A stretch of 64,000 nucleotides of DNA from Phoronis australis (Eukaryota > Animalia > Phoronida): the NCBI GenBank assembly GCA_002633005.1, contig NMRA01000758.1, forward strand, positions 62,001 to 126,000, given 5' to 3'. Shown piece after piece: positions 1 through 53,547 of this stretch. Numbering within the stretch: the first letter of the stretch is position 1; each line of letters starts with the position of its first letter. A program made the translations under genes and the position numbers. The notes under the pieces are model-generated. The model was not told where the DNA came from. It saw only the letters and a list, made by a program, of their open reading frames with translations, and did not search any database.

Positions 1-1162
1 ATGCCTGAACATCTTCACCTAGTTTGGATTGCAATATCAGTAGTCATATGTGTGATCCCTTGTTGTAGACCTTAGAGGCTGTTGACGCAAAAGGCAAAAT
101 TAACAGGATTAGCCAGCAGATGATGAAAGTTTCAAATACTTGATTCTCCTGTCTTGCGGAACGACGTCAATCAATTTCTCATTAGTAAAATTGCCAAATT
201 ACTTCACTCAGCTCACCTCTAAACCAGAGTATATTGTAGCTGTTATTCATATCAGCAATACCACAATATACTTGTGTTGACGTTTCATATGAGAGACTAC
301 TTGTGCGATTATTTGTATGGCTATGTGTGTATACGTATACATATTAAGTGTGTATAACTATGGCATGATTGTATTGTATTGTTTCTATAACAACTCATCT
401 AGGCAATGTTAATAACGAATTGCCCAGATAAAATGTTAATTTTGATTTATGGGATGTAATGTTATCTAATCTATTTACTTAATACTCATGAATAAAAAAG
501 TAGAGGAACTTGAGAAACTCAAATCGCAGCTTAGCCTGTGCTAAATAATGTGAGACTTTCAAATAGCAACTTGGCAACAGGTCACCTGGGACCGGATACC
601 GATGGCCTCTAGAGGATGAGGAGGTACTTTAGAACGCATCACGTCTAAGCATATACATTGTGAATGGGCCTTTTCACAAAGTCGCAGTGGTCCCCTATGC
701 CACCCGCTGCAAACACATGGTAACTCCTGGTACAACTAGGTGGCGCTATGAGTCACCGGTCCTACGTGATCAGCCCCAATTGCTTTCTGAAAGTCTCCCA
801 TTGCTGCAGTTAGATAAAGGTTATCACTTTCCAGGGCCCCAAGACCATCAACAACCATTCTTTACTCGAGACTATACTAAAAATTGACTAATCGTATAGC
901 ATGCTTGAAATGAAGTTTCATATTTCACAGTATGCGATTGGCCAACTTTGTAGTCGAGTCTTCAGAAAAGATGGATGGTCTTGGGCCCATATCACAGTTG
1001 TCCAGGATGGAATATTTACTAAAGCTCCATTCTGGGTAGGCTCTACAAAAAAGAAATGATTCTTTATTCAAACACAGGAAAACTGGTTTACCGTAAATAA
1101 CATGACCAACAACACTCTACGCCTCATTCATCCTGTGACAAAATGTTACATTTTAATTACAG

Positions 1163-1838
1163 GCTGTACAAAAAATACAAGCTGTATGAACCCATCAAAG
1201 CTGACAATGACAAAATGGCATGTAAAACCAGTGATGTGGGATACATTAACCCACTTATGGTCGCTGAATGTGAAGATGTCACCAACAACAGGATTACTAT
1301 AGTCCCAACTGAAGAAACAAATATAACAGAAATCAATGTCAGTGAAAACAATATATCAGCTCTGGACTATGTAAGTTGTAGCCACGACCACCAGAGGGCA
1401 GCACACATTCAGGAGATCAAATCAACACATGAGGAAGAAGAGTGCTTCCAACCTGTTGGCTTCACAACGGGAGGTGTCAAACTTACACACTCCAAGACAT
1501 CCAGTGGCAAGAATAGCCATGACTGCGGCCAAACTGTGCAAGTAAACACTGAGTGCTGTGAAAACTCAGATTTATCAAAATTCACCCATTCTGAATGTAC
1601 CGCGAGTATTCCACAGGACCAAAGTGAGCACGATTGCAAGATCAGTAACAAAGGGACATTTAATCACTTGGTTCACAGGTACTCAAAGAACATTGAGGTC
1701 CCGCTTTGTATTATAACTGATGGTTTCCATGGTGACATATTAGGTCACAAGACTCCTGCAGATAGAGTAGGAAGACACTCCAAGTGGCCACCTTATGCCT
1801 TCGATGGTGTTACAGTCAGTTGTAAAGCTGAAATATGA
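1163..1838 (+). CDS. Probable terminal coding exon (cytoplasmic tail) of an upstream membrane-protein gene (gene A)
   Basis: Long ORF. Acceptor ttttaattacAG ends at 1162 and entry is phase 2, the same (AG)|G Arg junction as gene B's last exon. Reads (R)LYKKYK...GYINPLM...CKAEI*. AATAAA near 2270 and 2365. Upstream exons were not identified. Confidence 0.55.
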
Positions 1839-3207
1839 AGAGACTTCATGAAAAAGTAACTCACAACTGGTCATATGGTTTTGTTTGTGAAGACAGATGT
1901 GACTGGATTGTGGTTTCTTCATTTGTGCACAATGGCAAACCGATGAAATCTTATTTTGTTTAATTGCTTAGCAAAAATCTTAAGAAACAGTGGTAGGTCT
2001 ATGGGGGTTCAATGGTGCCATTGGTTCGGTAAACCACGTTGCTCAAATTATAGATCTGCCCCTGAAAAGATTACTTCAGTCTTAGCATAATTTGCTTTTT
2101 ATGTCACACATGAAAACACTTTGCGCATTTGTAGAAATGTCAGAAACTCTTGAAGAACAGTTAGAAAGTTCAGACAGAAAAAATCAATCATATTTTAAAC
2201 ATACTACTTATTTGTATTTTTGTATCTACCATTTTAAATGAAAGCACTTTAACAAGCGAGCTCTTAGTAAAATAAACGAATGAAAGAAAAAATGACTGAA
2301 AACTAATTGCATTCTGAAATCAACAAATCTTTGAAATTGTCATGAAAATTTGTTTTGAGGCTAAAATAAAAGAAACAAACTGAAGAAAGAGCCATTCACT
2401 GGTCATTTCCTTAAGGCCCTATACTCTTAATACAGGATAAAATGCTCCTGAGTGGATGTTTGCTTGGTGGCCTATATGGTGGGTAAAGAAAAGTATTAGA
2501 GATAATGAGCAAAACAATACAATGACAACATTGGAGACTACAGTACTGAACAGACATCACTAGACCTATGTACATTTGTTATGCAACAACCAGGGTATGA
2601 AACTGAACTCAAAATTACTCAGCCAAATATGCTGACTAATTAAATGTATGCTTCGCATAGCGTTTTTCAACTAATTGAAATGAAATTTACAATCACGCGT
2701 CCATCGTCAATGATTTTATCTTCAAGACCATTGTCATCTCCAGCATCACCAGTGTTGTCATTGCCAGCTGTGTTCTTGTTGGTGTTAGACGACAGTGGGG
2801 TAACCCTATAGGAATCACCATCCCACCACTCACGTAAAACATAAATATTTGATTTTTCTTTAAACCTGAAAACTATGTTTTTGGTAAAACGTGATACATT
2901 ATAAAATATTTGCCAAGGGTATGATTTGAAAAACCTGAAACTATCATGTTCAAATGTGTGATGCCCACATTCCAGAGTAGAGAGATCGGGAGGAGAGTTC
3001 TGGTTTGCAACGGAGTCACCTTGGCCATTGATGTTAGTTTCAGTGACATTCTTATTGTCAACAGCCTTTTGATTGTCAAACAGTTGGCTTCAGTAAAAAC
3101 AGAGTTGTTGACGTCAGCGCTGGATGTGTGGTTGGCTCATTAGTGTAACTGTTCCAGTCGTAAGGACAGTTTATATTGGATCCTAGCAGTAGTTAGCACC
3201 TTTTTAA

Positions 3208-9039: not shown

Positions 9040-9091
9040 ATGAAGTTGTTTACTGTATTCTTACTAATAATCCAGATCCAGTATTTAACAG
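9040..9091 (+). CDS. Gene B exon 1: signal peptide
   Basis: ATG at 9040, MKLFTVFLLIIQIQYLT, then phase-1 donor G|GTAAGT, which joins in frame to the exon at 15975. Confidence 0.75.
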
Positions 9092-12000
9092 GTAAGTACA
9101 TTATATTATACACTAACGGTACATCTTACAGCAGAAGTCGTGAACTTAACATCAATCATTTCTAATAAAACACCTGATATTTGATAATGAATCATATATG
9201 AACCAATTTATTTCAAATTTTTCCAATAAAAGAGAAGATTTCTTGATCATCAAAAACTAAACTATCAACTATGCTATTGAACAATACTAATCAACATGGC
9301 AGAAAAAAATGGGAATCTATAACAATTGATCATTTAGATTTACCCTTGCGTGTAAAAAGCCAGTTATGGCAATTCTTGGATTATTTCACAAATGCAGTTG
9401 CCAAAAAGGTCATTTTTACATTGTTAGATATGATGAAAAATTGCCAAATGTTGTTTAATCACAGCTGTACAGAACAATCTATTATTGTTATTAATGAAAT
9501 CAAATTTTAATGCTCATTTTTGTTGAGAATTGTGACAAAATGAAATTGCAATTGTCAACCACACTACCCAGAATGCCCTCTTTTCCACTCTGAAAGCAAC
9601 CAGCCACTCTGGCTTAACACTCTTAGATACATAACTAAAAACAGAAGCAAATTTATTCATGCTGTTTGCAACACTGGTAACCTGAGCTAGTGATAGCCAA
9701 ACAGCCTTTAAAGTCCTTATCTCAAAGGGCAATCTAGTTAAAAAACATTAAAATTTATACCAAATTAATTAATATGTAACAGGGCTTAATATTCACCTCC
9801 TTTTTGTTATCAAACTAAAAGCCTTTTTGAGCACGATTTTGTACCTCGGCTGAGATCAGAAAATCATCGACTTAATTCCCGTCTACTTCCGTGACCGGAG
9901 TTCCTGTACATCAGTTCAGGAACGATTCTTGAATGGTGGTCATGTTGTCCTTGAAAAAGTATTGACATCACCGTGAGCGTAATTGCGTTGTTACTTTGGT
10001 TGTGATGAACATTAAAAAGAAGACCAAATTCGGCTAACTTTGCAAAATCATATCTAAAAATGACCGATCGGATTAATATGAAACTTTTATATACTAGCCC
10101 CATTCATGTGCTTAACTGAGAACCCCGCATATTCATGGTTTACATAAATCCGCTTTTAATTCTGTTAACGCGAGCATTTTCATGTGTTCAGTTCCTGTTA
10201 AAGAAACCCGCTTTTCTAGGTCACTCCTGTCGTCGACTTTGGTAACTACAGCTCTTGTGGCATCAAACCTAGCACCTACTGAGTTAAATTGGTAGAGAAT
10301 TCGTCAGTAAACCCATCATGGATTCACTCCCGCAGGCAAATGTGACAGTTCATTGGCAGCAGTTTCAAAACACTGAAAACTTACAATAAATTTCCTCTAG
10401 TCTTTTCGCCCATGGGGCATACATCATGATATCCATTTTGGTCTCCGACAGCCCTCCAGAGACTAATAGGACTCAAGAAACGCATAGATTTGTCAGTCCA
10501 CATTTTTTTTCAACTCTGCGGGAAATGTGGCTAGCAATATCGCTTGCGTGAAGTAAGGATTTCCCTTAGCATAATTGCTTCATTTGATATTCACCGCGGC
10601 ATATCAAATAACGCAGTTGTTAGCAGTAATAAACCCCTAAACTTGCCACATACAAGAAAAGTGCTATTCCGAGCATTCACATGTAAGTAACTTTTGAAGA
10701 ATACCACTAATGGAGTATAGCGAGTTTCTGAGTATTTACAGGAGTTTTTACGCAGTAGTCGAGTGCATGTGAATGGGCCTACTATGCTTTAAAGGCATGC
10801 GTCAAACCTATTTAATTTTCATTTTTACGATTTTAATCAGTCTGTATTCATATCACCTCATGCCCGTCCACCACACTGGGACGACAGGTATCACGCTAAC
10901 CTGTGACGACACCAAGGACACAAAATGATGATGTCGATGGATCTTGCGATGAGAGTGTCACTATTTCTGACAATGCAGAGATGCCTCATGTATAAAGAAG
11001 TATCAAGCCCATCTGACTACTTTGCAGTCATGCCTATAGATTTTTTGATGAATAAATTATAATGCATTTTAGGCTTTTTGTTGTTGAAAACTCAAACACT
11101 GCACAAAGTTACTGAATTGTTTTTAGTGAAACTTACTTGGTTTCCAAGTTTGAAGTCTTGTGCAATCAACTTTTGCTTAAAACTGTGCTTTGTGTGTTTC
11201 TTCTCAATTAAGATTGAGAAGTGAGCTTCAAGTTAGCGACATTTACTGAAATTTATTCAGTACTTTTGTTTATTTTTTAAAAACAAAACATCAGAACAAA
11301 GAAAATAATGGACCAGTCATGGTGCTAAATTACTGGGCTTTGGTGCATAATTATATTGCAACTATATGCAAGGAAATAACACAATAACTTAAGGTGGAGT
11401 TTATAAAATAATGTCAGGTCACGTGAGTGACTCATGTAGGGGTCAGCCACTTAAATGTGTTCTTGTTGCATGACCTCTTCACCAGATTTCTTTAAGGCTA
11501 AATTGATCAAAGAAATGAAATTAAGGAGTTAAGTCTTATGGAGAAAGAATAAAACAGATTGTGCAGTTTCATAAATTCAGTTAAGTCAAGTGAGTGATCC
11601 ATATATTTAGTGCCACTGTCGAATATCTGTAGTTACAGACAAACATGAAAGAAAAATGAACGGGAATGATGAGAACTCCACATTACAATATTGGGATATT
11701 TTTACAATTTTTTTTTTATTCATTTGGTAACAGATTTTGGACTTCCAAACACTGCATTAAATGTAGAAGTATTAACTTTTGACAGTTCTGTGATATAAGG
11801 CCTTCCCAGAAAATCCCATATATACCATTTCGTACAGCAGTTATCAAAAAAGAAAAGGAATTTGTAAGTTTAATACAAATATTTTCCCATGGTCATGAAG
11901 GGTTTGAAAAACATACTGTTCATGGGTTGAAATTTAGTGTTTAGAGGAAACATGACCCTAAATGACAAAGGAATGCTGTAACTCCACTTCATGTTTTATC

Positions 12001-13303
12001 ATTCCAAAGGTGCAGTCAGGTTGTATAGTACAAACCTTGATCTCCGAGTTTCTTCTTTCACTACGATAGATAGTAAAATGAAACAAATTTCACCTAAAGC
12101 TAATTATATTGGCAAAATGAGCTTTTTTGGTTCCAGAAAAAACGTTTTACCAAAGCGAGTGCCCATAATTATTTAAAATGATGAATGCAAAGGTGCACAA
12201 GTGGAAACAACAAAGCATTGAATTCGTAATACTCATCAATTTTGGGTAAAAATAACTACAAAGAATTACCTTTTTTTTCAATGCCTGCTATTATTGCTGT
12301 GAATGCCCACAATTTTACAAAATACTTTGAGATGGTAGTTACGGTACAGAGTTTGTAAAGCATTGAATTGATGCCACAAATCTTTTATGAAAAAAATGAG
12401 AAAATAATGTAACAGCACTTTGTTCTGTGAAGGAAACACGGCAAGACCTCTTGACTCCACAGAACCACGCACACTGTATACCACCATGTTGCTAGCATCT
12501 CCAAAAATGCATCAAATTTGACTAAAAAACAATAACTATTTGTGTACCATGAAATTCCTTTGGAGATATCTTTAAACATATTTAAATTACATTGCTTTTT
12601 AAAATAGCCTTTATATAAAGAAGGTATAGATAAGAGTGGCTTGGTGAGAAAAATTACAAGCATTACAGTAAAATCTAATCAATTTTAGAAAGAAATGTTT
12701 GACCCATAATACTCTTTTATCAATGTTCAAGGATTTCTGACAGTGTTGGGAATGCTGCTGATTTTCAAAACCTTACCTGATGGTGGGTGTGGTACAAAAC
12801 TTGGGCATGGACAAGCAAATAATTTGCTGCTACATATCTTACAGTGAATGAAACTTTACTTGTCAGCCATATTGTGTCCTCACTTGGTGAGATAGTACCA
12901 CAGCATCAGGCCAGAAAGCAGCGTATTTGGTTCTGGTCTCTCATTTTTTGATAGTCGAGTCAGATGTGTAGGCGGGGTGGGCAGATGATGCAGTAGATGA
13001 ACACATAGTTCTCAAAATGACTCGGCATAGACACCAAAATCCAATATCCTTTTTAGCTTAGTCACCAATACTTTCTGCACATGTTGCCACGTGTACTGAA
13101 ACTTAGGAGAAAAATGAAAATCTCACCAATTTAGGACACAATATGGCCGACAAGTGAATTTTTTTCGTTATTTTCCAATCAAGACGTGAAGCACCAAATG
13201 AAATGATTTTCCATGTTTAGGTTCTATTTCACAGCTACCATCAAAACTTTGTTTTGAAAAATTTGTGGGCATTCACAACAAGGTTAGGAGCCCTTGAAAA
13301 TTG

Positions 13304-15396
13304 AAACAAGAGCAACACAGAACGTTGAAATGCGCCCACGAATGCATCACAAATGGTGTGCTTTTAGGGTTGTTTATTTGTATCATCAAAATGGCCACTA
13401 GATAGTGCAAAATACATCAAATCCGTCTGAAAACCAGAAAATGTCATCGTTTCTTTAAAAGAAAGCCCTTTACCAAATTTCATTAAAATTTGTCGAGGAA
13501 CTTCAGAGAAACAGAGGAAAATGAAAAAAAAAAATGAAATTGCCACAAGGGGGCACAGAGTTCTTTGGATCCGTCTAAAAGTCGTCATCTTCTCTTGTTA
13601 ACTTCATTTAAATACACATGCTAAATTTAATAAAGATCCTGCATAGGGCTTAGGAGATACAGGTATGGGTGCAAAAAACCAAACTGCCACTAGGAGGCGC
13701 CACAGTAGTCGAAGTCGTCGAAAATTCATCGTCAACCGTTTTCTTCATAGAAAGAATATACATGCCTGACTTTCACAATCATCCTATGAGTGGTTTGGTT
13801 GACAGAGGGACGGACACCAAAAAAAAACTCAAAAAAAACAAAAATGGCCACTAGGTGTTGCAAAATACCTTGAATCAATCCGAAGATGAATGGCTAGCGT
13901 AACCTCAGATGACTATGTGCCAAATTTTCTGGAAATCCGTTGAGGATCTCTGAAGATACATAAAAACTATAATTGCTACTAGGGGGCACACCGGTAAACC
14001 GATCTGTCCGAAAGTCATCATCGTCCGTTGTCAACTTCAAATAAATACATTTGCTAAATTCAATAAAGATCCTGTAGAGTGTTTAGGAGATACAGCCATG
14101 GGCGCAAAAACAAACAAAATTGCCACTAGGAGGCGCAAGAGTAGTCGAAGTCGTCGGAAAATCATCGTCAACTGTCTTCTTCACAGTAAGAACATACATG
14201 CCCATTTTTACAATCATCCTTATAGTGCTTTGGTTGTTAGAGGGGCGGACGCAAATAAACGACTCGCAAATAGTAAAAATGGCCACTAGATGGTGCAATA
14301 TGCCTCAAGTACATCTGAAAACTGGAGGATAGCGTGAACTCATTAATAGATGCCTGTATGTCAAATTTCATGAAAATCGATTGAGGACCTTTGAAGATAC
14401 AGAGATAAACGTAAAAAACTAAAATCGTCACACGGGGCACAGCGNGCAGTGGGCGGTTAAATCGAAATTCACCTAAAGTAGGGGGTGGGCGGTTAACTGA
14501 GCATGGGCGTTAACCCGAACGATTACGGTACATGCCTGACTTTCACAATCATCCTATGAGTGGTTTGGTTGACAGAGGGACGGACACCAAAAAAAAACTC
14601 GAAAAAAACAAAAATGGCCACTAGGTGTTGCAAAATACCTTGAATCAATCCGAAGATGAATGGCTAGCGTCACCTCAGATGACTATGTGCCAAATTTTAT
14701 GGAAATCCGTTGAGGATCTCTGAAGATACATAAAAACTATAATTGCTACTAGGGGGCACACCGGTAAACCGATCTGTCCGAAAGTCATCATCGTCCGTTG
14801 TCAACTTCAAATAAATACATTTGCTAAATTCAATAAAAATCCTGTAGAGTGTTTAGGAGATACAGCCATGGGCGCAAAAACAAACAAAATTGCCACTAGG
14901 AGGCGCAAGAGTAGTCGAAGTCGTCAGAAAATCATCGTCAACTGTCTTCTTCACAGTAAGAACATACATGCCCATTTTTACAATCATCCTTATAGTGCTT
15001 TGGTTGTTAAGAGGGGCGAACGCAAATAAACGACTCGCAAATAGTAAAAATGGCCACTAGATGGTGCAAAATGCCTCAAGTACATCTGAAAACTGGAGGA
15101 TAGCGTGAACTCATTAATAGATGCCTGTATGTCAAATTTCATGAAAATCGATTGAGGACCTTTGAAGATACAGAGATAAACGTAAAAAACTAAAATCGTC
15201 ACACGGGGCACAGCGATATTGGGGTCGGTCCGAAACTCGTCGCCCTCTGTCGTCAACCCCATAGGAACACACCTGCCAAATTTCAATAAGATCCTGCCAG
15301 AGCTTTAGGAGATACAGCCGCAGATGCCGGAGACCAGGCGGCGGACAGAGATGACGTCAATATGCAACCACATATAAATATGCTAGTGCATAAAAA
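13304..15396. mobile_element. Non-autonomous Helentron/DINE-1-like element with internal tandem repeats
   Basis: Begins AAACAAGAG and ends in a TATGCA...TGCATA hairpin plus AAAAA, inserted in an A-run. Internal ~145-bp diverged subunits (CCAAATTTCAT, GCCACTAG, GGGGCAC) form a ~435-455 bp higher-order repeat. Partly duplicated across the N at 14445. Confidence 0.6.
14446..14530. mobile_element. Terminus of a TA-targeting Tc1/mariner-superfamily (Tc2/pogo-like) element
   Basis: Reverse complement reads TA|CCGTAATCGTTCGGGTTAACGCCCA, with repeated TAA(C)CGCCCA motifs. It abuts a TA that is empty in the parallel copy at 13759-13760. Confidence 0.6.
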
Positions 15397-15974
15397 GGCA
15401 TTTTTGGTAATTATTTTTGTCTGAATTTGGTGAGATTTTATCGTACGGTGTTTTTATCATTGGAAACCATGCTTAATTTTTTCAGTTATGGCCTACTTTC
15501 CACTTTTTTAAATTTCAAATTTACAAGATTTGTTATACGTAAAACTGTTGTTGAAAGACTGGCAACAATGATCATGTATTATCAATAGCAGTATGTAAAA
15601 TGAAACCATAAGGTTGTCTACATATAACACATAGCACACAATTGAGGAATTCAGTCAATGATTTCTTCCTCGCACGACTGACTACCCAAATCTAATGTTA
15701 ATTCGATTTCTTGTAAGTCATGTCATCTTTTGTAGTTATCTATACCACTGAAATAAAAAAGAAAAATAAGAACATGAGGGCAACTCAAAAATATTTTATC
15801 TGATATCTTACCAAAGAATTTGGCTTATCTTTTTTAGTTACAAATAGGACACATTTGTTGCAACAAAAATTAGCAGGCACTGACAACTGGAAGTGGGAAG
15901 TATAATAGTATGAACCCACCTACAGCAGAGAAACCAACAATATTTCAAGGATAACTCAACTGATTGCATTACAG

Positions 15975-16304
15975 GTGTTCTGATCACTCAGTCAGCCTGC
16001 GTGGACGATACAGTTAGCCTCTCATGTAATGCAAAGGACTCCATCAAACTGGTACGCCTACAGTTTGGCCGGCCAAGAGATGGCACTTACTGTACAAACA
16101 AGACTGGTGACTGTCTGCTGGTGCTGACAGCGTCAAGTAGCAAGCCATATATCGACTTATTTCAGAGCGTCAGCACATCATGCGCAAACCTGACATCTTG
16201 CAGCGTGAGTGCGTTGGCAATAGGTATACCAGACTGTCAGCTGACCGATCTACCTACCCCAGGGGCTCCCAGTACATATATGGTATTGGATTATGAGTGT
16301 GCGG
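15975..16304 (+). CDS. Gene B exon 2: SUEL/Gal_lectin (rhamnose-binding lectin)-like domain
   Basis: Acceptor ttacAG and donor G|GTAAGT, phase 1-1. Reads SACVDDTVSLSC...QFGR...C...C...SCANLTSC...PDC...TYMVLDYEC, the 8-Cys, (Y/F)GR, (D)PC-like and YLxVxYxC pattern of SUEL domains. Confidence 0.8.
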
Positions 16305-16905
16305 GTAAGTGAAGCAGAGAGACAGATAAAAGAAACTACTCAATCTAACAGTAATTGTAATGCCCATACACTAACTCTTCACTTGTTTTACTATAACTGA
16401 CAAAATGGTCATTCTGGTTTTCAAAGGCTACTTGGCTAAAGATAATGGAAATTCATGTTGCTTTAAGTCATGTGCATAGCACAAATCAAGATAATAATTG
16501 AATGGAATTCCTGAAGCTTATGCTGGACCCTAGAAAAATGTTCAAATTTGGCTATTACTTTGCAAATCATATTTCAACAAATTGGCAGACTTGATTCATA
16601 TGAAACTTTCAAATAAAATGTTTTATGCAATTGTTCTTAAAATGCTCCACTTTTGTATGATTTTCAAGAAAAACAAATCAAAACTTGCATAAAACAAAAA
16701 CAAAACAATTTAGAAAACTAACACTTTTGAAATTTCATTTTGTACGTTTAAATCAAATGAGAATTTGGTAATGTTTTTGATACCTTAGTTTTCCAATTAA
16801 TGAGCCTTTCTTTTTGCTAAATTAAAAAACATAACTGTCACATAACCTAGTTAATGAAAGACTGGGAAAAGTCAAAATCAAATTCTGCAGACTTTCTACT
16901 TCCAG

Positions 16906-17052
16906 AAAATATATACCATTACTGTGTTAAAAGTCTATAGTAAAAATATATACCATTACTGTGTTAAAAGTCTATAGTAAAAATATATACCATTACTGTG
17001 TTAAAAGTCTATAGTAAAAATATATACCATTACTGTGTTAAAAGTCTATAGT
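16906..17052 (+). repeat. Minisatellite, 37 bp x4
   Basis: Unit AAAATATATACCATTACTGTGTTAAAAGTCTATAGTA. Confidence 0.95.
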
Positions 17053-17206
17053 TTTCTACATCTTTGGCTAATACACAGGCTTGTCAATAAGGTCCTACGT
17101 AACATTAATCTTGTTTTGGAGAATTTTGCTGAAATAACCTTTCATTTTTATGTTACAAATGAATGTGTTAAATATGTGAACAGTTATTCCAGTTGCAATG
17201 TGAACT

Positions 17207-17755
17207 AGTAATAATTTAGATTCACCCACAATGAGCCAGATCTATAATAACTTAGATTCACTCACAATGTGCCAGATCTGTAATAATTTAGATTTGCCCA
17301 CAATATGCCAGATCTAATAATTTAGATTCGCCAAAAAATATGCCAGATCTATAATAATTTAGATTCGCCCCCAACAACCCAGATCAGCAATAATTTAGAT
17401 TTGTCCACAACATGCCAGGACTCTAATAATTTAAGAATTGACCGCAGCATGCCAGGTCCGTAATAATTTAGATTCACGCAAAACATGCCAGGTGTATAAT
17501 AATTTAGATTCACCCAAAATATGCCAGATCTATAATAATTTAGATTCGCCCCCAACATCCCAGATCAGTAATAATTTAGATTTGCGCACAACATGCCAGG
17601 TTTGTAATTATTTAAGATTTGACCGTAACATGCCAGGTCTATAATAATTTAGATTTGCCCACAACATGCCAGGTCTGTAATAATTTAGATTCGCCCACAA
17701 CATGCCAGGGCTGTAATAATTTAGAGTTCACCCACAATGAGCCAGATCTGTAATA
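17207..17755 (+). repeat. Diverged minisatellite, ~36 bp x ~15
   Basis: Consensus about TAATAATTTAGATTCGCCCACAACATGCCAGATCTG. Confidence 0.9.
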
Positions 17756-19033
17756 CAAGATTGAGTTATTCCACTATACTGATTACGCTTTATTTATCAA
17801 CGAATTGAATATCAATTGTTTCTCATCATCCCCTCTTACCATCATTAACAATTATTTGAACAGTTGATACCAATGTTTACTTGTCACTTCATAGGATTAT
17901 TATTCAAAACATTACTGACTAGACAGTAGATATGTTCGTGCATTTGTACACTTCAATCAGTTGAAGTACAGGTCAACTACCTGAATGGTTCTTGATAAAT
18001 TAACACACATTTAGAATATATTCCTGCACAACCAAAAAGACCTTTAAAGGAACGTTATAGGAAAGAAAAGTGATTATCTGAGTTCATGGTCAGCACTGCA
18101 TCGTACCTTCAATCCGCAAGTTGCAGGTGCTCTGCTGCCGCAGCTTAACACTATCAGATAAATGGCAAAGTATTCAAGTTGGAGGGCCTTGGTTTCAGTT
18201 AATATCTGGCAGACAACAGCAAGAACTGTAAAACTGTACAAAAAAAACTTTAACTTAACCGATTTTGTGGTTTTATAGTCTTAATCAAAACAAATAATTC
18301 CATGAAGTCTTTTCTAGCCAACAGTAATCCAAAAATGTGTTTTCCGATACCGTCTCTTTTAACATAAAATATCTCAAATTTAGTGTGTGGTACAGTTGAA
18401 GCTAGTGGCTGCTTTTCAATGAATTTTCAGACTATAAATAAATGTACACAACAAAGACGAGAAATTTATAATATGTCGTATCAATTCTTATCCGATAGGT
18501 ATTACAATACGAGCATGAGATACATCACTAGTCAGATACATTATCATATTCCTAAGTGTAAGTAAACTAGACGACAAAGCACAATTACAAGCTTCCTTTC
18601 AGTCATAAATTTATTGTACTAGATGGCAAGAAAATCAGTCATTAAAATTGCGGGCAGAAAGTTCTTAATGAGCATCTTTGCAACAGGTAAACTATTATCA
18701 GCCATGGCAGTATAGAATTATTTTTGATGACAAAGAACATAAAAACCTGCAAAGCAATCTGTTAGGGCAGATCTACGAATTTAGTGATAGGAGGTTTACT
18801 GGATCAATGCCACTATCTTGTTATGCGAATACCCTTTTATTGGAGTTGAAACCCCTTGAATCCACCCGTAGACCCGCCACTAACCGTATAAACCCTCTTC
18901 TCTTAAGAATAATAAGTAGCATACAGCTTAAATATGTACAATGTTTGTACCAGCGTGTTACGTTTTTTATATCTCCATTGAGATACACAAAAGCATTCAA
19001 ACTCAGACTTTGCCCAGATTTAACTACTTACCA

Positions 19034-19428
19034 TAAAATCTCACCAATTCAGGTCTAAAACAATTATAAAAATTGCCATTTTTTCATTTTTAGTAAATAA
19101 AACAAAAATTTCTGTGTCTGTTTCTGTTGACAAAGGAAGATATTACATCCAAAAATTTCAAATTTCAGTTGAACCATTCTTGTTGTTTTATTTACCGATT
19201 TATATTCTACATTTCGTGAAACAATAGTATCCTTGGGAGGATCTGGATCGCCTTATTTAGTTTCAGATTTATTTTCTACGTTATTTTTCATTTTTCAACG
19301 ACTCCAACATTGTTGCCATTCATCCTCGATCTTTCAAAATATTGTCTGGTGGTAGCTATGGTGTAGAAATATAAGAAAATTAAAATTCACTTGTATGCCA
19401 AATTGTGTCCTAAATTGGTGATATTTTA
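19034..19428 (-). mobile_element. MITE family copy (reverse orientation) with an internal segment also present near 34200-34290
   Basis: Ends taaaatctcaccaatt and aattggtgatatttta. Internal tctgtttctgttgacaaagga...ccattcttgttgttttatttacc recurs at about 34204-34277. Confidence 0.6.
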
Positions 19429-21080
19429 CTGTAAGATAACATGAATCATAACAGAACAACCACTACTAACATATACGCACTTATACAGAACAGTCATTTC
19501 ATATGAAGACTACATGTATTGTGACCCTGTGTTACTGTAGGTCATGGAACTGGCAATTTGCCAAACACCTGCCTGCCATATATTTCGTAAAACACCTTGG
19601 ATATTGTTTTCACCAACAAAAGTAAGTTTAACTTCTTTTATTCCCATGACATCAAGCTGCACTGTTACAAGGTGAATAACTTGTTTAGATATAAAAGGAA
19701 TGAAAGTTCTCCCAAAGTTACACACAATTTCCATTTTGGCATTCTGTGCCCATCTTGTGTGATGTCATTTTGAGAAAATCTCAGAGAGGAAACAAAGTGT
19801 TTCTTTCTTCTTTTAGTTACTTCAGAAACTCAAAACGTAACTTCAGAATGTTGACATCCTGACTTCGAGACTATTTTTCTCGAGATACAACCTACAACTA
19901 AATTGAAGAAATCCCACCTACAGTGGTTTGGGTAAATGACCACAAACTGGTCTTAAATTCTTTCATAGCGACTCATTCCAATTTTTCCAAGGCAAATTTC
20001 AGAGGATACCAACAGATCAGCTTGGAAACATATCTAGGTACTTTATCGTCAAATAAAATTTACTAAAGAAACAACTTTACTTGGTTTAAACAGTGTGCCA
20101 CCTGCTGGAAGAATCTTGTGCATTGCACTTCTCTTCTTCATGTCAAGAACTTTGTTTATAAAATGGCAGTTAACTGGATTACATTGACAACTTTCACTTA
20201 CATTTTTCACAAGTTTTTGTTCTGGGAATCCCATGGCAGTTCGGTTTTGATTTGCCATAACAATGAGATGTAGAAAGTTTAAGTGTATCGCCAGCAAAGC
20301 AAATCGTAGACAAAAATACAGAGGACCCAATATCTGCACAAGCGCAAGTATGTGTCACTTCTCCCATATGAAACAATTCCATTCACTCTAGTGAGGTATG
20401 TATTAACTAATAATGTGGCTCGAAATCATTTCAAGTATCAGGTTTGGGTTGAATGATTGCAGCTAATCTGGTAATATTTACAGAATATGATTTCAGCCTC
20501 AAACAGGGCTTAAGGTTAGCTCAAAACTTATTTAGTGACCGCCATTCTAATTCATATATCAAAAAACAGGCTTTGTCCACTAGTGAAAGTATGTATTTTC
20601 TGGAAAAACATAAGAGGTTATAAAAATATGTTTCATATTGGCGCGCAATAATTATTATTACGTTACCACCTTTTTTAAGTCAAAATTCCATTTTTAAGAA
20701 AGGTACATCCATATAGCAAAATAAACCCTGGTAGATTTTAAATTGTATTTGCATACTGTTTAAGATTTTCTTCGATTATTGTCAAGAAAGTTGGACACAT
20801 TAATTTTTAAGTATGGCGGAGATTTCTACATTGCTGCCGCCTAAAATGAATTTCTAAATATTACTACCAAAATGACTCAAAAAAAGGTGTCAAAAGGAAT
20901 GAAATATCTTCCTGGCGTGATCAAAATATTTTAAAAGAGAAATATAAACAAGGAACTCATACACAACTTTTTCTTAAATTTCCTTGACTTCACAAATGTA
21001 CCTAACAACATGATCTGTTATTCTCTTAACTCATATGCTAGGATTAACTTTGAGCTTCCCTTGGTCACACTACTTTTCAG

Positions 21081-21113
21081 ACATAACAACGACAGCGAGT
21101 TCAGATACAACAG
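21081..21113 (+). CDS. Gene B candidate 33-nt micro-exon (DITTTASSDTT)
   Basis: Acceptor tacttttcAG, donor CAG|GTGAGA, phase 1-1, Thr/Ser-rich like the next exon. Confidence 0.6.
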
Positions 21114-21148
21114 GTGAGACACTACCCTTACCGTGACCTACCCATCAA

Positions 21149-21212
21149 CGTTGTTGTTGCTTTTGTTGTTGTTATTGTTGTTATTATCATTATTATCATT
21201 ATTATTATTATG
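21149..21212 (+). repeat. (TTG)n/(TTA)n microsatellite
   Basis: Read directly. Confidence 0.85.
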
Positions 21213-21949
21213 AATGATAAAATTATCCTAGTAAAAAACCCAATTGTGCTTGTGATTTAGTACCTATACTGAACTCCCTTGCATCTTACCAGTTAGTAGT
21301 TCATCCAGTGTACGGCTTAATAGAACCTTGCAAGTTTAGCAACAACCTGCTACAGTTCACCCCAAAATGTCGCTGTGTATGGGGTCTTGTGAATGTTGCA
21401 CAAAAGGGCCTGACCTCTGAAAGTGATACCATGGTATGGCCAAATCTGTTTTGTCTAGTTTTCCCACAAAATAAAGATTTTGACAATTCAAGTCTATAAC
21501 TAGCATGGTTTGTGCTGAGTAGATGTCATGAAACACTCTTGGTACATTTTCTATTATTTATAATAAATCAGCATTTGATCAATGAAAAATGATAATTTTG
21601 TCAATTATTTCAGTGCAAAATAAGTAGAGAATTACATTACCTATTGATTTGTTGTACATAACAGCAGCTTAACATGCTCAAGGCAAAGTCGGATCATCAA
21701 TTTGAACTAAGAAAAATACCAGCATGGAATTTATTATACTGAAGAGTAATTCATATTACATAACAAAAGACATCAATTAATGCATATTTATTATATTTCT
21801 AACTACTCACTGGTTACATAAGAATACAAACCATCATCTCCAAGTACACATGTAAAAGCATGACATTGGTTATATTGTGGGTACAAAAACGAAAATCAGT
21901 AGCAACCAAGTAACAAACAGAATGGTTTCATACATCATTTCATCAGAAC

Positions 21950-22700
21950 TTAAAGCAAATGCTTATATCTTTAAACACAAAAAAAAGTTTATTTCAAAAC
22001 TCATATGGCCATTATCTCACTGTTCAACATATAATATACAAACACTATAATCTCGCCATATCATCAAATACTCAAAATTTTGCTCCTAATTACCACTGCT
22101 TGTTGAATGAATGATGCTGTATTTCTTAAAACATACATAGAATCTGAACTCAAGAGTGCCTAACGTTTCTACTTCTAACAATACACTGTGGTAAAAGATA
22201 ATTCCGTAGGTCCGCAAGGACAGGACAATCAAGTAAAAGGTGTATCTCTGTTTCAATTTCATCCTCGTAACAAACTTTACGAATTCTTTCTGGTCGAGGT
22301 TAATTGTTTCTTCTCCCCAACTCAATCATAAGATGATATGTGGAACACCTCAAATTTGCTGATTTAAAGACAGGCTATCACATAAATACTTTTCACATGT
22401 TAATTCAGATTAAATTGAACCGTAAATATTACATTTATCCCTATTTGCAAATGAAGACGACCAAAATTGAAAATTTATATCCCTAAGTTTTCGCTTAAAA
22501 GAAATTTAAAAAAATCATTTCATGACTTAAATCGTTAAAAGTTCACTATTGAAAAACAGAAATAAGGCATTCTACATCAGATCTTTGAGTTTCTAAACCA
22601 TTTTAGTTGATTTTAGTGAATGATAAAGAACGTCTTCCAAGAATATTTCAACTGGTTATACGCACGTGGATGCCATCTCAATCTGTTTGAACTGAAACTA
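21950..22700 (-). mobile_element. Decayed 3' fragment of a non-LTR retrotransposon (RTE-X/Tx1-type C-terminal CCHC region)
   Basis: The minus strand at about 22200-22365 reads, with frameshifts, ISKF..CS.YHLMIELGR...PERIRKVCYEDEIETEIHLLLDCPVLADLRN, the typical 'LxIExGR..ERxC..C..E.E.H.L..CP..LR' LINE ORF2 tail. Boundaries approximate. Confidence 0.65.
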
Positions 22701-23857: not shown

Positions 23858-24038
23858 GACAGTCCACACTGGTTATCCTCAACTGTTTGTTTTCCTTAAT
23901 CTTGTTCCTAGATTTTGATGGCAATGAAAACTACTACACAAGTTCATTCCTATAGAACAATAGCTGAGAGTCATCAAAAGGCTGTGTAAATTGTGTTTTG
24001 CTCATTTCATGAAGAAATATACCGATTTTGTTTAATAG

Positions 24039-24359: not shown

Positions 24360-24568
24360 GTAAGTAGTCTTGGTAAAAATGGTGAANGACAGTCCACACT
24401 GGTTATCCTCAACTGTTTGTTTTCCTTAATCTTGTTCCTAGATTTTGATGGCAATGAAAACTACTACACAAGTTCATTCCTATAGAACAATAGCTGAGAG
24501 TCATCAAAAGGCTGTGTAAATTGTGTTTTGCTCATTTCATGAAGAAATATACCAATTTTGTTTAATAG

Positions 24569-36722: not shown

Positions 36723-36786
36723 ATGATGTTAGGCTCACTGGGTCTTCATGTTCTGCTGGTATGGGCTTATGTCATGGCAGTGACAG
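36723..36786 (+). CDS. Gene C exon 1: signal peptide
   Basis: MMLGSLGLHVLLVWAYVMAVT, then phase-1 donor G|GTAAGA, in frame with 39612. Confidence 0.75.
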
Positions 36787-39611: not shown

Positions 39612-39890
39612 GTGTCCAGCACAGCAGTAGATGTCATGACTCCAACTCTATACCCCTTGACATACGATGTGATGATGGCTACATGCTGCAGATAGTGAAA
39701 GTACTGCATGGTTACAATACACGTCATGACTGCACGTTCCGGCCTGGGGACTGTGAGAACATGCAGCGCCAGCGTTACGACTGTGTGGGCACGCAGCGAT
39801 GTGCATTGAACGAAACACGGGATGCGGTCTGGATACCACGGTGCAGGAAGAAGAGTAACTTTGTTCAAGTCGACTACAACTGCATAAAAG
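39612..39890 (+). CDS. Gene C exon 2: 8-Cys SUEL-like domain
   Basis: Acceptor atAG, donor G|GTAAGA, phase 1-1. Reads RCHDSNSIPLDIRCDDGYMLQIVKVLHGYN...DCTFRPGDC...DCVGTQRC...RCRKKSNFVQVDYNCI, with the same Cys order and terminal VxYxC as gene B exon 2. Confidence 0.75.
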
Positions 39891-48192: not shown

Positions 48193-48537
48193 CCAGCTTG
48201 GTGCATAACATCTGTGACAACACCAGTACACCACTGACAGACCAGCAAGGATTCATCGCATCACCCAACTACCCCAACAACTACCCACCATCTCTCAAAT
48301 GTCACCTCAAGGTACAAGTTGACCAGGGTCAAACGTTAGAGTTCCATGTCATAGACTTAGACCTGCTTGACTCTAAATTTCGTGACTGTCTGATGATGAA
48401 TGACCATATCAGCAGTCATACCTGGTGTAACAGATTCGCAAACGAAAAGGTATTTCAGTCGAGGAGTAACAAAGCAAGTATCAGGTTCACCACCAATGAC
48501 CAACAGCAAAGTAAAGGCTTCTGGATGTATTATAAAG
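48193..48537 (+). CDS. Gene C exon 3: CUB domain
   Basis: Acceptor cattacAG, donor G|GTAAGT, phase 1-1. Reads C...QQGFIASPNYPNNYPPSLKCHLKVQV...DLDL...DCL...WC...FQSRSNKASIRFTTNDQQQSKGFWMYY. Confidence 0.92.
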
Positions 48538-50066: not shown

Positions 50067-50330
50067 CCAGTCCACCAAGACGAGGTAGAAACCAGAACAC
50101 CACACCATTTATACGGACAACTCCAGCCCAAACAACTACAGGAGGCATTGTAAGAGTGCCCACATTCACAACCAATGAAGTTCCCCCAACAACGACAACC
50201 ACGCAAACAGTGACGGACAGAAAAACAGAGACAGAGTCAGAAACAAAAAAGAGTCAAAAGAAAAATGTATCCAACAGCTCACAAAACAAGCAACATGGAT
50301 CTAATGAGACATCAGACACATTGCCAATAG
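50067..50330 (+). CDS. Gene C exon 4: Thr/Ser-rich stalk
   Basis: Acceptor ttttcAG, donor G|GTAAGC, phase 1-1. Reads ASPPRRGRNQNTTPF...TSDTLPI. Confidence 0.85.
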
Positions 50331-50625: not shown

Positions 50626-50756
50626 GAACAATAATTGGTGCCGTACTTGGAAGTCTTGTGCTCATAATGGCCATATTAGTGGCTTTGCTTGTCGTAAGGA
50701 GATTGAGAGAAAAGCGGCAGAAACAATCAGACTCCCTTCACATGATCTTCACATGA
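50626..50756 (+). CDS. Gene C exon 5: transmembrane helix and short tail
   Basis: Acceptor catttcAG. Reads GTIIGAVLGSLVLIMAILVALLVV-RRLREKRQKQSDSLHMIFT*. The five exons total 1083 nt, or 360 aa plus stop. Confidence 0.85.
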
Positions 50757-51369
50757 GTGTGTAATGATCAACAAATAACAACAACAGATTTTCAACCAGA
50801 GCGAGCACGTCGCAGCCACTGAAAAAGTTCATGTGAACTTCAAATGAGTGTATACTGACCTAGTAATAACAAACGATCTTCTACCTGACTGTGCACAGCA
50901 CATTCACTAAAGAAAGTTCATGCCATCTTCATGCAATTGAGAAGAATGGGAGATAACCACTAGCAGAGCCACAACATCAGGGGTCAGTTTCATGAAATTG
51001 ACTTAAGACAAAAATTTGTACATGTGCTACCATTTCACAACTGCTGAAAAATGGTTTAGCCGAGCAATTATAAAAGCATCAAAATCTAAAAATAATTTGC
51101 ATAAATTACCTCAGTAGCCTAACGAGCAATTGTGTGCATAATTTCAGACACATTGCACTTTAGCTAAAGTGAGATTATAATTACCTTTCAGAAACAGTTG
51201 TGACGAGCGTAAGACCAAATTTCTGATTTAATTCTAAAGACACGTTTCATGAAACAGAAAACAGACGCGTGGGCAAGAATAAGTACACAACCACTTTCAA
51301 TCTACATCAGTTTAACCACTAAGACAGGAGGTTCATAACTGAAATGAGGTTTAGGCAAAAAGAGCACGT

Positions 51370-51610
51370 TAAAATCTCACCAATTTCGGACAAAAATTAT
51401 TGCTATAATTACTTATTATTCAATGTCTCTTAACATTGATGTAAATGACTCCTTTTTTTTCAAAAGCTTGTCGTTAGTGGCTGTGGTACAGAGCTTGAAC
51501 AAGGCACAACATTAGTTTGGTGCAATGTACTTTTATGGAAGAAATGAGAAAATTGAGAAAATAAACTTCAATTTGCCCGCCACCTTAAGTCCTGAATTGG
51601 TGAGACTTCA
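51370..51610 (-). mobile_element. MITE family copy
   Basis: Ends taaaatctcaccaattt and gaattggtgagacttca. Confidence 0.55.
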
Positions 51611-53309
51611 GTGAAATGGTCAGTTAATGTTCTGGAATAGAACAATGTCTCAAGACTGAGACAGATTTGGATCAACTGTTAAAATACAACATGATCTCAT
51701 TCAGCTTGGAACATCGCATGAAAACCATTATGAAAACAAGAGTGATAAGATGATAGAGGGCGCCACTAATGAAGTGCTCCCTCTCAGTCATCTAGAAATA
51801 CAACACATCACTAATTGATGAAACAGTTCAAACAATAAAAGTACCAATAATATTCAACTGAATTAAAAGGGACCACTAAATAAAGGAGTACATAAATATG
51901 CATTTGATACGTGTTGTAAGTTCTAGTTTTAGGCCAAAGTAATGACAGAAAATAGCACTTTGGCATGAAGCAATGTCAAACTTACGACACGCACACCCAC
52001 ACATTTTGTTTCCTTTCCACTGATGATGGTGTGACTTAAAACAACACATTGAAATGGGGATAGGTATTTTCTGTCGTTGTTCAAAACCAACAGCACCTAT
52101 ACTCTGTTGATATATGTCGGTTTGATTTTTCTTTAAAATTTGCATAGTCTTCATCAGGACTCTTGCTCTTTGTAAGAAAAGACTGGCTTGGAAAGAGTTT
52201 ATTAGTCATATGCAGCCATTGTATTTCCTGTTCTTTGATAAGAGAGGGGTGTGAGAGTTGAGAGATATGTGAATCGGTTTGGAGAGTCAAAATTGTCAGT
52301 GATATTGGTGACTCACATAAAATAAACATGTGTAGAGTATGAGATGATACAGTGTTACATTAGTGTAAGGACGAATTAAAAATAGTAATTATATCATGTG
52401 GCAGTCACATGCATTAATGGTGTTCGGACATCATGTGGCTGTCGCATGTACTTTGCTCACATATCATGTGACTGTCACATGTACTAATTGACCTATCGCA
52501 AGCTCTGCCCCCTTGCAAAAAGTCGACAAACAAACAATAAGTTTTACCCAGCAACATGTTGTTTGTCGGGTAAAATGAGGACTTGGAAATGAATGTGTGT
52601 CAAGAACGATGCGTTCTGATTGGTCAGTTAAGCCGTCACTCAAAATCCTGCTGATAGGTCAATTGTGTTCAGGCTGACTGACAGTCAAAATTAAACAGAG
52701 GAAATTTAATAATATTAAGCAATAATGTAAGATAGGATTGTTGTGTTTACCTAAGTGCGCTTGTATGTAAAACTATGGTTGTAACAGCTCTTAAAAAGGT
52801 GGATGGGTACAAGGCACTGTGCTCTCGGTATTAACTTGTTTTTTAAGACTAACACTGAAACCTTTAAATGGTACTTACATTTTGATTGAGAGCGTTATTG
52901 TTTCTGTTATTACATTTTTCACATATGAAAGTAAAGTATACCATTTATTTATTTATTTAACATATTAAAATGTATTTATGATAGTATATGTTATTATTCT
53001 CATTTCGTATTTTGAAGTTTGACCGTGAAACTTACAACACATTCATCACATCAAAGCTATATGCTGCACATGCTTTCTAAATCATTGGTGCACAACTTCT
53101 AACATGCAGCAGTGTTCACTAACATGTCACTGTGATTTGAGCACCCCCTTTTGGGCAGAAGAAAACACCCATTGCAGTCAAATGACCACAATACGTTCAC
53201 ACACTAACACATCTACACGTGCTCACACAAAACCTGCAGCCAGAAAGTGCCATTGGGAATTGTGATTTCAACACTAGACCCAACAAATTGTATTGCCTAA
53301 AGCTGAAAT

Positions 53310-53430
53310 GAACTGCAGTGAGCAGACCTTCAAATGCAGAGGGCAGATCTTCAACTACAGAGGGCAGATCTTCAACTGCAGTGCACAGACCTTCAACAGC
53401 ACAGGGCATATATTCAACTGCAGAGGGCAA
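53310..53430 (+). repeat. Diverged 21-bp minisatellite x ~6
   Basis: Consensus AACTGCAGAGGGCAGATCTTC. Confidence 0.85.
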
Positions 53431-53547
53431 TAGAATTTCTGCTTGTGGCAGTTTTAACTGTGGACATGCAGCCCTCAACTGCCGTACGGTGGTTTATGGC
53501 AGCAGTCAACCCCTAGCATGTGCACCTCGCACAAAAATTTGGCTTAC

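What the first reader, a model, noticed from the sequence alone, without database searches (positions are those of the whole stretch)
1..53547. Cluster of lectin-type membrane receptor genes apparently nested antisense inside one >53 kb ASCC3 intron
Seen: 14 ASCC3 exons with 0.3-1.1 kb introns end at a strong phase-2 donor (AG|GTAAG, 53548) after RRLVMNP. Known: ASCC3 continues with SYY..., the rest of the winged helix and a second Sec63 unit (roughly 400 aa). Neither the ORF track nor my reading shows those exons in 1-53547. Seen: that interval holds three co-oriented plus-strand gene models (A, B, C). Inference: the next ASCC3 intron is about 50 times larger than its neighbours and hosts a multi-gene, multi-exon receptor array transcribed against a housekeeping helicase.
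Basis: partly seen in the sequence, partly recalled or inferred. Interest (0 to 1): 0.8.

Follow-up and report, generated by a model that had tools for sequence, protein, structure and literature searches.

The report
Ancient gene hidden inside ASCC3 intron
The housekeeping helicase gene ASCC3 splices onward to an exon outside this window, across what is likely one intron of over 53 kb, and an expressed cell-surface protein gene lies on the opposite strand inside it, an arrangement likely shared with molluscs and brachiopods and therefore likely very old.

Summary
Confirmed and extended. Fourteen ASCC3 exons (63244-53548, minus strand) read as 742 aa without a stop. No C-terminal exon lies in 1-53547. 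RNA (4 reads in X7, one X5 contig) continues from the 53548 donor in frame into SFYKLENTDH, the expected ASCC3 sequence, which is absent from the window. Gene C (signal, SUEL-like, CUB, stalk, membrane span; 359 aa) is spliced on the plus strand at all four introns. Its 3' UTR ends about 0.6 kb from the donor.

New: database ASCC3 models break at this junction in 21 mollusc, brachiopod and annelid species. Gene C's relative shares a record with an ASCC3 half in 10 of 12 species, and in scallop its accession lies between the halves.

Weaker: gene B is an untested model, gene A is one tail exon with no lectin domain, and the SUEL-like domain lacks the canonical sugar-binding motifs. The acceptor was not seen, so the full intron length rests on the assembly. 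This is an ancient nested gene of a known kind (synapsin-TIMP, NF1) that I did not find in print.

The parts
53548..63244 (-). ASCC3, 14 coding exons: 63244-63068, 62586-62361, 61814-61561, 60552-60384, 59903-59683, 59449-59364, 59008-58842, 58150-58005, 57598-57478, 56935-56793, 56499-56362, 55583-55463, 54890-54758, 53673-53548
   Evidence: 742 aa, no stop, 83.4% to Lingula ASCC3; the last three introns seen as RNA joints
53546..53548 (-). Phase-2 splice donor (AG|GTAAGC), used in RNA and joined to an exon outside the window that encodes (S)FYKLENTDH
   Evidence: loose end (X7 4 reads, X5 1 contig); no match in the window
1..53547 (-). Long ASCC3 intron (lower bound 53,547 nt if the assembly is right; acceptor left of the window)
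   Evidence: length beyond gene C's span (from 36.7 kb leftwards) rests on the assembly
36726..36786 (+). Gene C exon 1, predicted signal peptide
   Evidence: RNA joint to 39612 in 8 and 10 reads
39612..39890 (+). Gene C exon 2, SUEL-like domain
   Evidence: Pfam PF02140 E 6.6e-5, below the curated cut-off; match to PDB 5H4S E 5e-4; RNA joint in 4 and 13 reads
48193..48537 (+). Gene C exon 3, CUB domain
   Evidence: Pfam PF00431 E 2.2e-15; RNA joint in 5 and 12 reads
50067..50330 (+). Gene C exon 4, Thr-rich stalk
   Evidence: RNA joint in 7 and 11 reads
50626..52940 (+). Gene C exon 5: predicted membrane span, short tail (stop at 50754-50756) and a 3' UTR of about 2.2 kb that runs through a MITE and ends about 0.6 kb from the ASCC3 donor
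   Evidence: hydropathy 3.1; X5 contig to 52538; plus-strand RNA depth 6.6/20.8/9.0 at 52680-52810 and about zero at 52942-53465
9040..28336 (+). Gene B (predicted): signal 9040-9091, SUEL-like 15975-16304, stalk 24039-24359, weak membrane span 25676-25772, long tail 27691-28336; 481 aa, no CUB
   Evidence: all AG/GT, open frame; SUEL exon E 6e-5 to the gene C family profile; Pfam E 0.003; atlas 0.95 to SUEL clusters but low recognition score; no RNA test
24569..24889 (+). Second copy of B's stalk exon, inside a 529-nt overlap across a single N; probably an assembly overlap
1163..1838 (+). Gene A (predicted): one 224-aa last exon only; no lectin domain in the window
   Evidence: no Pfam family beyond a weak DUF2972 hit, E 0.04; similarity to B's tail not significant, E 0.37
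52486..52665 (.). MITE-like repeat with short terminal inverted repeats inside gene C's 3' UTR; the one repeat between gene C's coding exons and the ASCC3 donor
   Evidence: (depth spike, loose ends, 52534>52595 variant)

Best explanation
ASCC3 mRNA is spliced from the donor at 53548 to an exon outside the window, across what is likely a single intron of more than 53 kb, and a separately transcribed antisense gene for a predicted SUEL-like/CUB single-pass surface protein (gene C) lies in that interval, an arrangement likely inherited from an early lophotrochozoan ancestor. Shown: the donor is used; the next exon is the normal ASCC3 continuation and is not in the window; gene C is spliced from the other strand in the same RNA samples; its 3' end stops about 0.6 kb short of the donor. 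Inferred: the join is ordinary cis-splicing; gene C is the old resident; B (and perhaps A) are later, diverged local additions that, with transposon and repeat insertions, enlarged the intron here. The nesting probably persists by entrenchment, since moving the guest out needs breaks that spare both host halves, and not because host and guest work together. The guest probably acts as a cell-surface adhesion or recognition protein; sugar binding is doubtful.
For:: loose end at 53548 in X7 (4 reads, agreement 1) and X5 (500-nt contig, 114 nt on the exon), same 30 nt, reading S-F-Y-K-L-E-N-T-D-H in frame. Among 116 held homologues the first residues here are S 79, Y/F 115, Y 115, L 100 (positions 1, 2, 3, 5); not in the window; four GT-AG joints of gene C on the opposite strand to ASCC3, at exactly the predicted coordinates. 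An X1 DNA contig from 52624 onwards carries both the UTR end and the ASCC3 exons. X7 depth is similar on both sides of the MITE (19.8, 20.8); of the 120 best C-half-only proteins, 22 rows are named lophotrochozoans (21 species). Fifteen start at the junction (0/+1), 3 align from -3 to -14 through what look like unrelated leaders, and 4 start at a later Met. Of 28 other species-named rows, 0 start at 0/+1 and at most 4 start at about the junction. RefSeq joins the halves in Mizuhopecten, Mya and Dreissena. Guest linkage: equal record length in 10 of 12 species. Mizuhopecten OWF45882 (N-half), OWF45883 (guest), OWF45887 (C-half); Sinanodonta 029590/029591; Mya WAR07337/39/40; Patella caerulea 018654/018657; Physella on one 280.6-kb record; Lingula guest 5' fragment on the 233.6-kb record of the C-half, the geometry expected from a break inside the guest.
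Against: The acceptor and the DNA left of the window were not seen, and no genome is held. Junction support is thin: 4 reads in one run and one contig; X6 and X8 list no loose end there (2 rows were not shown). No single DNA record spans the MITE at 52486-52665, and X1 may be the assembly's own source. Continuity from 36.7 kb leftwards, and genes A and B, were not tested. In other species I saw only protein names, accession order and record lengths, not coordinates or strands. Solemya's guest and C-half are 1,368 accessions apart. Pinctada's are 157 and 299 apart (its two ASCC3 halves are 142 apart, so numbering there may not follow position). Candidula and Watersipora have them on different records. 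Lingula also has a full-length ASCC3 model on a 55.4-kb record and a full guest on a 309.8-kb record, which fits only if those are gap-filled or haplotype copies. Pomacea, Helobdella and Watersipora models are unsplit.
Confidence: 0.8

Rival explanations
1. Only gene C is nested. The window is misjoined somewhere left of 36.7 kb, so B and A lie outside the intron and the intron is shorter than 53 kb (but at least about 17 kb).
For: Draft assembly with three single-N joins and duplicated overlaps; many repeats; region 1-36.6 kb not tested with reads. No relative of B or A was placed near ASCC3 in any other species.
Against: All three N joins fall inside gene B's span, and B's five exons still read in order and in frame across them. 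There is no N between 24980 and 64000. B's SUEL exon matches the gene C family profile (E 6e-5; control best 0.32), which fits a local paralogue. Scallop has three more accessions between guest and C-half, and Plakobranchus twelve.
Confidence: 0.1
2. ASCC3 is made from two separate transcription units joined by trans-splicing at this junction, and the surface-protein genes simply lie between or beside them.
For: The acceptor was not seen. Gene models break at this one junction in 21 species. No intronic minus-strand RNA lies next to the donor.
Against: Both halves share a record in Mizuhopecten, Mya, Dreissena, Bulinus, Pinctada and Ridgeia, and RefSeq joins them as one gene in the first three. 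Gene finders often break at long introns (own knowledge). The libraries show almost no intronic reads in ASCC3's short introns either, so missing intronic signal says little.
Confidence: 0.04
3. Assembly misjoin at the MITE (52486-52665): ASCC3's next exon is really close by, and none of the plus-strand genes is nested.
For: No listed DNA contig spans the MITE; pieces end at 52511 and begin at 52624.
Against: Plus-strand RNA continues in unique sequence right of the MITE at the same depth as left of it. The same guest family sits next to ASCC3 halves in several unrelated assemblies, which a chance misjoin would not reproduce.
Confidence: 0.03
4. The window holds a truncated ASCC3 copy that ends or polyadenylates just after 53548.
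For: Two minus-strand AATAAA lie about 590 nt past the donor (52957, 52949).
Against: RNA splices onward from 53548 with no mismatch group listed on the ASCC3 exons, and depth is about zero at 52942-53465 in 3 of 3 raw-read runs. Depth is low, so a minor or stress-induced isoform is not excluded.
Confidence: 0.03

Closest known systems
Synapsin-TIMP nested pair (PMC2825198, passages read)
   Same: Antisense multi-exon guest at a conserved position in a host intron, kept across phyla, sometimes multiplied within the intron (Ciona 2, sea urchin 10) and sometimes lost (nematodes).
   Different: Different genes. SYN-TIMP reaches back to cnidarians and is shown by genome coordinates. Here the range seen is molluscs, a brachiopod and this animal, and the evidence elsewhere is accession order and record length only.
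NF1 intron holding OMG, EVI2A, EVI2B (PMC4394429, passages read)
   Same: Three protein-coding genes on the opposite strand inside one intron of a large gene.
   Different: The passage describes human only. The guests here are longer (16-19 kb, five exons each for B and C) and unrelated to those genes.
Insect TipE/Teh cluster in CG18675, and GMC oxidoreductases in flotillin-2 (PMC3240667, passages read)
   Same: A family cluster nested in one intron of a widely conserved single-copy host, with escapes in some lineages and poor expression correlation with the host.
   Different: Insect-limited and functionally characterised. Here the cluster beyond gene C is unproven and the guest has no known function.
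Human ASCC3 long and short isoforms (PMC5332558, passages read)
   Same: Same host gene; a very long pre-mRNA (373.5 kb, 42 exons) whose long form is repressed after UV.
   Different: The human switch uses an alternative last exon within the first 25 kb. Here the long intron is near the 3' end, and no short isoform was seen.
SUEL/rhamnose-binding lectins (PDB 5H4S; latrophilin lectin domain 8DJG)
   Same: Cysteine pattern and length of the domain (family profile vs 5H4S E 2.5e-10).
   Different: YGR, DPC and KYL are replaced in gene C and in nearly all 36 relatives. The domain is followed by CUB, a stalk and one membrane span.

Membership tests
ASCC3 (Ski2-like tandem helicase) | Sequence orthology over helicase cassette and Sec63 units | tested here: met
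   742 aa at 72-83% to named animal ASCC3 among the top hits; best Lingula 83.4%
ASCC3 (Ski2-like tandem helicase) | Complete C-terminal part expressed | tested here: met
   RNA continues in frame past 53548; only the first 30 nt of the continuation were displayed
Intron-nested gene | Host exons spliced across the guest | tested here: inconclusive
   Donor use and off-window continuation shown; acceptor position not seen, so cis-splicing across the guest is inferred
Intron-nested gene | Guest is its own transcription unit, here on the opposite strand | tested here: met
   Gene C: four GT-AG joints with first mates on the strand opposite to ASCC3's. B and A not tested
Intron-nested gene | Guest physically continuous with the host exon | tested here: met
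   X1 contig 52624 onwards plus plus-strand RNA on both sides of the MITE; indirect at the MITE itself
Anciently conserved nested pair (SYN-TIMP type) | Same host intron position across phyla | tested here: met
   C-half models start at or just after this junction in 21 mollusc, brachiopod and annelid species; intron lengths there not measured
Anciently conserved nested pair (SYN-TIMP type) | Same guest inside that intron, antisense, by genome coordinates | tested here: inconclusive
   Same record in 10 of 12 species, adjacent numbers in 4, between the halves in 1; coordinates and strands not available
SUEL / rhamnose-binding lectin (PF02140) | Domain score above Pfam's curated cut-off | tested here: not met
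   23.6 bits (C) and 18.4 bits (B) against 31.4
SUEL / rhamnose-binding lectin (PF02140) | YGR, DPC and KYL motifs (seen in 5H4S and 8DJG; their role in sugar binding is recalled) | tested here: not met
   Gene C has HGY, IPRC and NFVQ; family counts 3, 1 and 1 of 36
SUEL / rhamnose-binding lectin (PF02140) | Sugar binding | not testable with these tools
   Needs a binding assay
Lophotrochozoan SUEL-like/CUB/membrane family (unnamed; 'cubilin', 'CUBN-like', 'uncharacterized' in databases) | Signal, SUEL-like, CUB, stalk, one membrane span, about 350-400 aa | tested here: met
   Gene C vs family profile 300 bits, 28-33% identity to most full-length members. B lacks CUB: not met for B

The most novel reading that the evidence does not exclude
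The long intron and its antisense guest have been kept since the Cambrian because they regulate ASCC3. The intron sits just before the exons for the helicase's last Sec63 unit, so slowed elongation after DNA damage, or collision with the converging guest transcript that ends 0.6 kb from the donor, would switch off full-length ASCC3 or divert it to the AATAAA signals at 52.95 kb. That would be a lophotrochozoan counterpart of the human UV-induced ASCC3 isoform switch, built from a nested gene.
Probability: 0.12. Interest if true: 0.75.

Novelty: new member of a known kind. Interest (0 to 1): 0.52.

Why it matters
Nested host-guest pairs that last across phyla are few; synapsin-TIMP is the textbook case. 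An ASCC3 pair shared by molluscs, a brachiopod and this animal, with the same break point in annelids, would be a new ancient one. It would be usable as a rare genomic character and as a test of whether nesting persists by entrenchment or by shared regulation. It also explains a systematic annotation error: ASCC3 is filed as two genes in many lophotrochozoan proteomes. And it points to an uncharacterised surface-protein family, seen mostly as one cluster per species, that is mislabelled cubilin or lectin.

Tried and rejected
No whole genome is held, so the acceptor and intron length could not be read. One search listed no RNA holder on record; RNA runs came by species label, and only what was laid is used. 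The first read lay did not show the 53548 loose end because repeats filled the table; the narrower lay did. Two scripts used slightly wrong exon ends and gave stops, as did the first plus-strand models; these were corrected. The careful tree did not finish. The quick tree groups the window with Lingula and Ridgeia at 92, with no starred set, so the animal is only 'a lophotrochozoan, nearest Lingula among those compared'. The 'LOW QUALITY' flag on three joined mollusc models was checked for X residues at the junction: none. Atlas searches gave SUEL and CUB clusters only, with no named function. Pfam found nothing at the cut-off for 20 of 21 frames scanned, CUB being the exception. Literature: ASCC3 + nested gene + intron, 0 papers. 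ASCC3 + lophotrochozoan, 1 paper, whose one mention is ASCC3L1. Searches listed 20 of 88, 20 of 24, 15 of 22 and 14 of 16 papers, none on this locus by title or abstract start. Genome-paper supplements and subscription journals were not searched and could hold the synteny. Earlier scan findings: none.
Full report
Observation. The window is animal DNA of about 37% G+C with three single Ns; no whole genome is held. Homologues fetched with one exon map 14 ASCC3 exons on the minus strand. With ends snapped to AG/GT they join to 742 residues without a stop. The 13 introns measure 233-1084 nt (median 542), and the last exon ends in phase 2 at AG|GTAAGC, 53548. Full-length homologues run about 400-435 residues further. 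A profile of 38 such C-termini finds nothing in 1-53547 (best E 0.78; reversed control 5.3; the two better scores are ASCC3's own first Sec63 exons). The profile of the preceding part finds 14 of 14 exons. The best match is Lingula ASCC3 (83.4%). A quick tree groups the window with Lingula and Ridgeia without strong support, so the animal is a lophotrochozoan of unresolved place.

ASCC3 is spliced onward. Runs labelled as the same species were found. On 52680-56590 the last three ASCC3 introns appear as joints. At 53548, four reads of X7 and one 500-nt contig of X5 leave the window with the same 30 letters. In frame after the AG these read S-F-Y-K-L-E-N-T-D-H, matching what follows this junction in 116 held homologues (S 79, Y/F 115, Y 115, L 100 at positions 1, 2, 3, 5). 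The 30-mer is not in the window at up to three mismatches. X6 and X8 list no loose end there (their depth in that bin is about 1; two rows were not shown). RNA depth is about zero from 52942 to 53465 in all three raw-read runs. A truncated copy as the main form is therefore refuted. The acceptor's place was not seen.

The guests. Gene C (36726-36786, 39612-39890, 48193-48537, 50067-50330, 50626-50756) encodes 359 aa: predicted signal, SUEL-like domain, CUB, Thr-rich stalk, membrane span and short tail. All four introns are seen in X6 and X7 (8/10, 4/13, 5/12, 7/11 reads) and in a 3118-nt X5 contig, with first mates on the strand opposite to ASCC3's. Its 3' UTR enters a MITE at 52486-52665 and plus-strand RNA resumes beyond it at the same depth (X7 19.8 before, 20.8 after), ending near 52940, about 0.6 kb from the donor. 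An X1 DNA contig starting at 52624 carries this UTR end and the ASCC3 exons; X1 may be the assembly's own source, and no listed piece spans the MITE. So at least about 17 kb and gene C lie downstream of the donor with read support. Gene B (9040-28336, 481 aa) is an open five-exon model with a divergent SUEL-like exon and no CUB; it was not tested with RNA. Its doubled stalk exon lies in a 529-nt overlap across an N and is probably an artefact. Gene A is one 224-aa exon with no domain and no significant likeness to B. The lectin label is weak: both SUEL scores are under Pfam's cut-off, and the YGR, DPC and KYL motifs of 5H4S are replaced in C and occur in 3, 1 and 1 of 36 relatives.

The junction is an old break point. 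A search for short proteins matching the ASCC3 C-terminus (best 120 of 466 examined, gastropod query) gave 22 rows named to 21 lophotrochozoan species: gastropods, bivalves, Lingula and three annelids. Fifteen start at the junction, three align from -3 to -14 through what look like unrelated leaders, and four start at a later methionine. Of 28 other species-named rows none starts at 0/+1 and at most four start near it. RefSeq joins the halves in Mizuhopecten, Mya and Dreissena. I infer a long intron that gene finders fail to cross; its length elsewhere was not measured. Pomacea, Helobdella and Watersipora models are whole.

The guest travels with it. Gene C's SUEL exon retrieved 41 representatives, among them full-length proteins of the same layout in bivalves, limpets, a chiton, Lingula, a nemertean, an octopod, Owenia and, more distantly, Watersipora. 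A profile search returned 36. In 12 species both a family member and an ASCC3 piece had a record length, and 10 match. Mizuhopecten: N-half OWF45882, guest OWF45883, C-half OWF45887 on one 3.6-Mb scaffold, the order seen here. Sinanodonta: tags 029590 and 029591. Mya: WAR07337, 07339 and 07340. Patella caerulea: 018654 and 018657. Physella: one 280.6-kb record with the N-half. Plakobranchus: 13 accessions apart on 2.46 Mb. Lingula: the guest's first 121 residues on the 233.6-kb record of the C-half. P. vulgata, Pinctada and Solemya share only a chromosome-sized record, with accessions 157-299 (Pinctada) and 1,368 (Solemya) apart. Candidula and Watersipora do not match. Lingula also has a whole ASCC3 model on a 55.4-kb record and a whole guest elsewhere, which I could not resolve. 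These are names and numbers, not coordinates; strand in other species is unknown.

Mechanism. Most likely the polymerase crosses the whole interval on the minus strand and ordinary cis-splicing removes it, while gene C is transcribed from its own promoter on the plus strand, converging on the donor. Both RNAs are present in the same bulk samples. C is probably the ancestral resident; B, perhaps A, and many repeats probably enlarged the intron in this lineage. Entrenchment is the simplest reason for persistence: PMC3240667 (passages) notes that nesting is gained more often than lost and that host and guest expression are usually uncorrelated. A regulatory role like the human UV switch (PMC5332558, passages) is possible but has no support here beyond two AATAAA sites.

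Comparison and verdict. The architecture is of a known kind: synapsin-TIMP (PMC2825198, passages), NF1 with three antisense guests (PMC4394429, passages), and TipE. PMC8878817 (passages) says the role of SUEL lectins in lophotrochozoans remains elusive. Searches found no description of this pair; some searches were for background, and PMC10076317 was seen as a listing only. Supplements and subscription journals were not seen. The Cambrian age of the mollusc-brachiopod-annelid split is recalled, not from a call. Verdict: real; a new member of a known kind; the conserved ASCC3-guest pair is the interesting part, the 'lectin receptor array' less so. Interest 0.52.

Noticed in passing
ASCC3 intron 56792-56500 (293 nt here): Database models often break at this second position, about 179 residues before the main junction: N-halves end there in Pinctada, Patella, Mytilus, Bulinus, Ridgeia and two vertebrates, and about ten vertebrate fragments start there. 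It may be another anciently long intron that is short in this animal.
   Followed up: partly
window 39612-39890: RNA reads of X6 and X7 differ from the window at 10 listed sites in gene C's SUEL exon (4 change a residue); the X5 contig shares 4 of the 10. No differences are listed on the four ASCC3 exons. This could be high allelic diversity or a paralogue; the table was truncated.
   Followed up: partly
window 13759-15215 and 23858-24917: Near-identical overlaps (687 and 529 nt) on either side of single Ns at 14445 and 24387: scaffold joins with unmerged overlap. A third N lies at 24980 in a GGT-rich tract.
   Followed up: yes
window 41482-41766 (+) and 37.3-43.2 kb: Cys-rich frame resembling the P2X7-like domain carried by some DNA transposons (recalled; Pfam gave no such hit), inside a high-copy repeat region by X1 depth, in gene C's introns.
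   Followed up: partly
window 3647-4015 (+): Frame with a THAP-like look (CVCGG...VSVFKFP...W; recalled, no Pfam hit): probable transposon remnant.
   Followed up: partly
window 2670-3136 (-): A 140-aa open frame with an overlapping 87-aa frame, protein-like in composition, no Pfam hit for the longer one; on ASCC3's strand but not ASCC3-like. Unexplained.
   Followed up: partly
window 46841-47073: Inverted repeat, 107-nt arms 98% complementary with a 19-nt loop, inside a larger repeat.
   Followed up: no
window 29304-29881, 17172-17805, 6236-6443, 16869-17052, 43725-44085: Tandem arrays with units of 34, 36, 26, 37 and 29 nt.
   Followed up: no
window 52949-52969: Poly(A) signals on both strands within 20 nt: ATTAAA on + at 52964 near gene C's RNA end, AATAAA on - at 52957 and 52949.
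   Followed up: partly
window 57861-58064, 62129-62345, 63223-63407: Degenerate tandem copies that include ASCC3 exon ends (64-, 65- and 37-nt units), giving decoy splice sites at 58005 and 63244.
   Followed up: no
P0152 / P0028 (Ridgeia): ASCC3 halves are tagged 71g03022 and 71g05055 on one 685.6-kb record; if the first digits are 100-kb chunks (a guess from the naming style), the halves are 100 kb or more apart.
   Followed up: no
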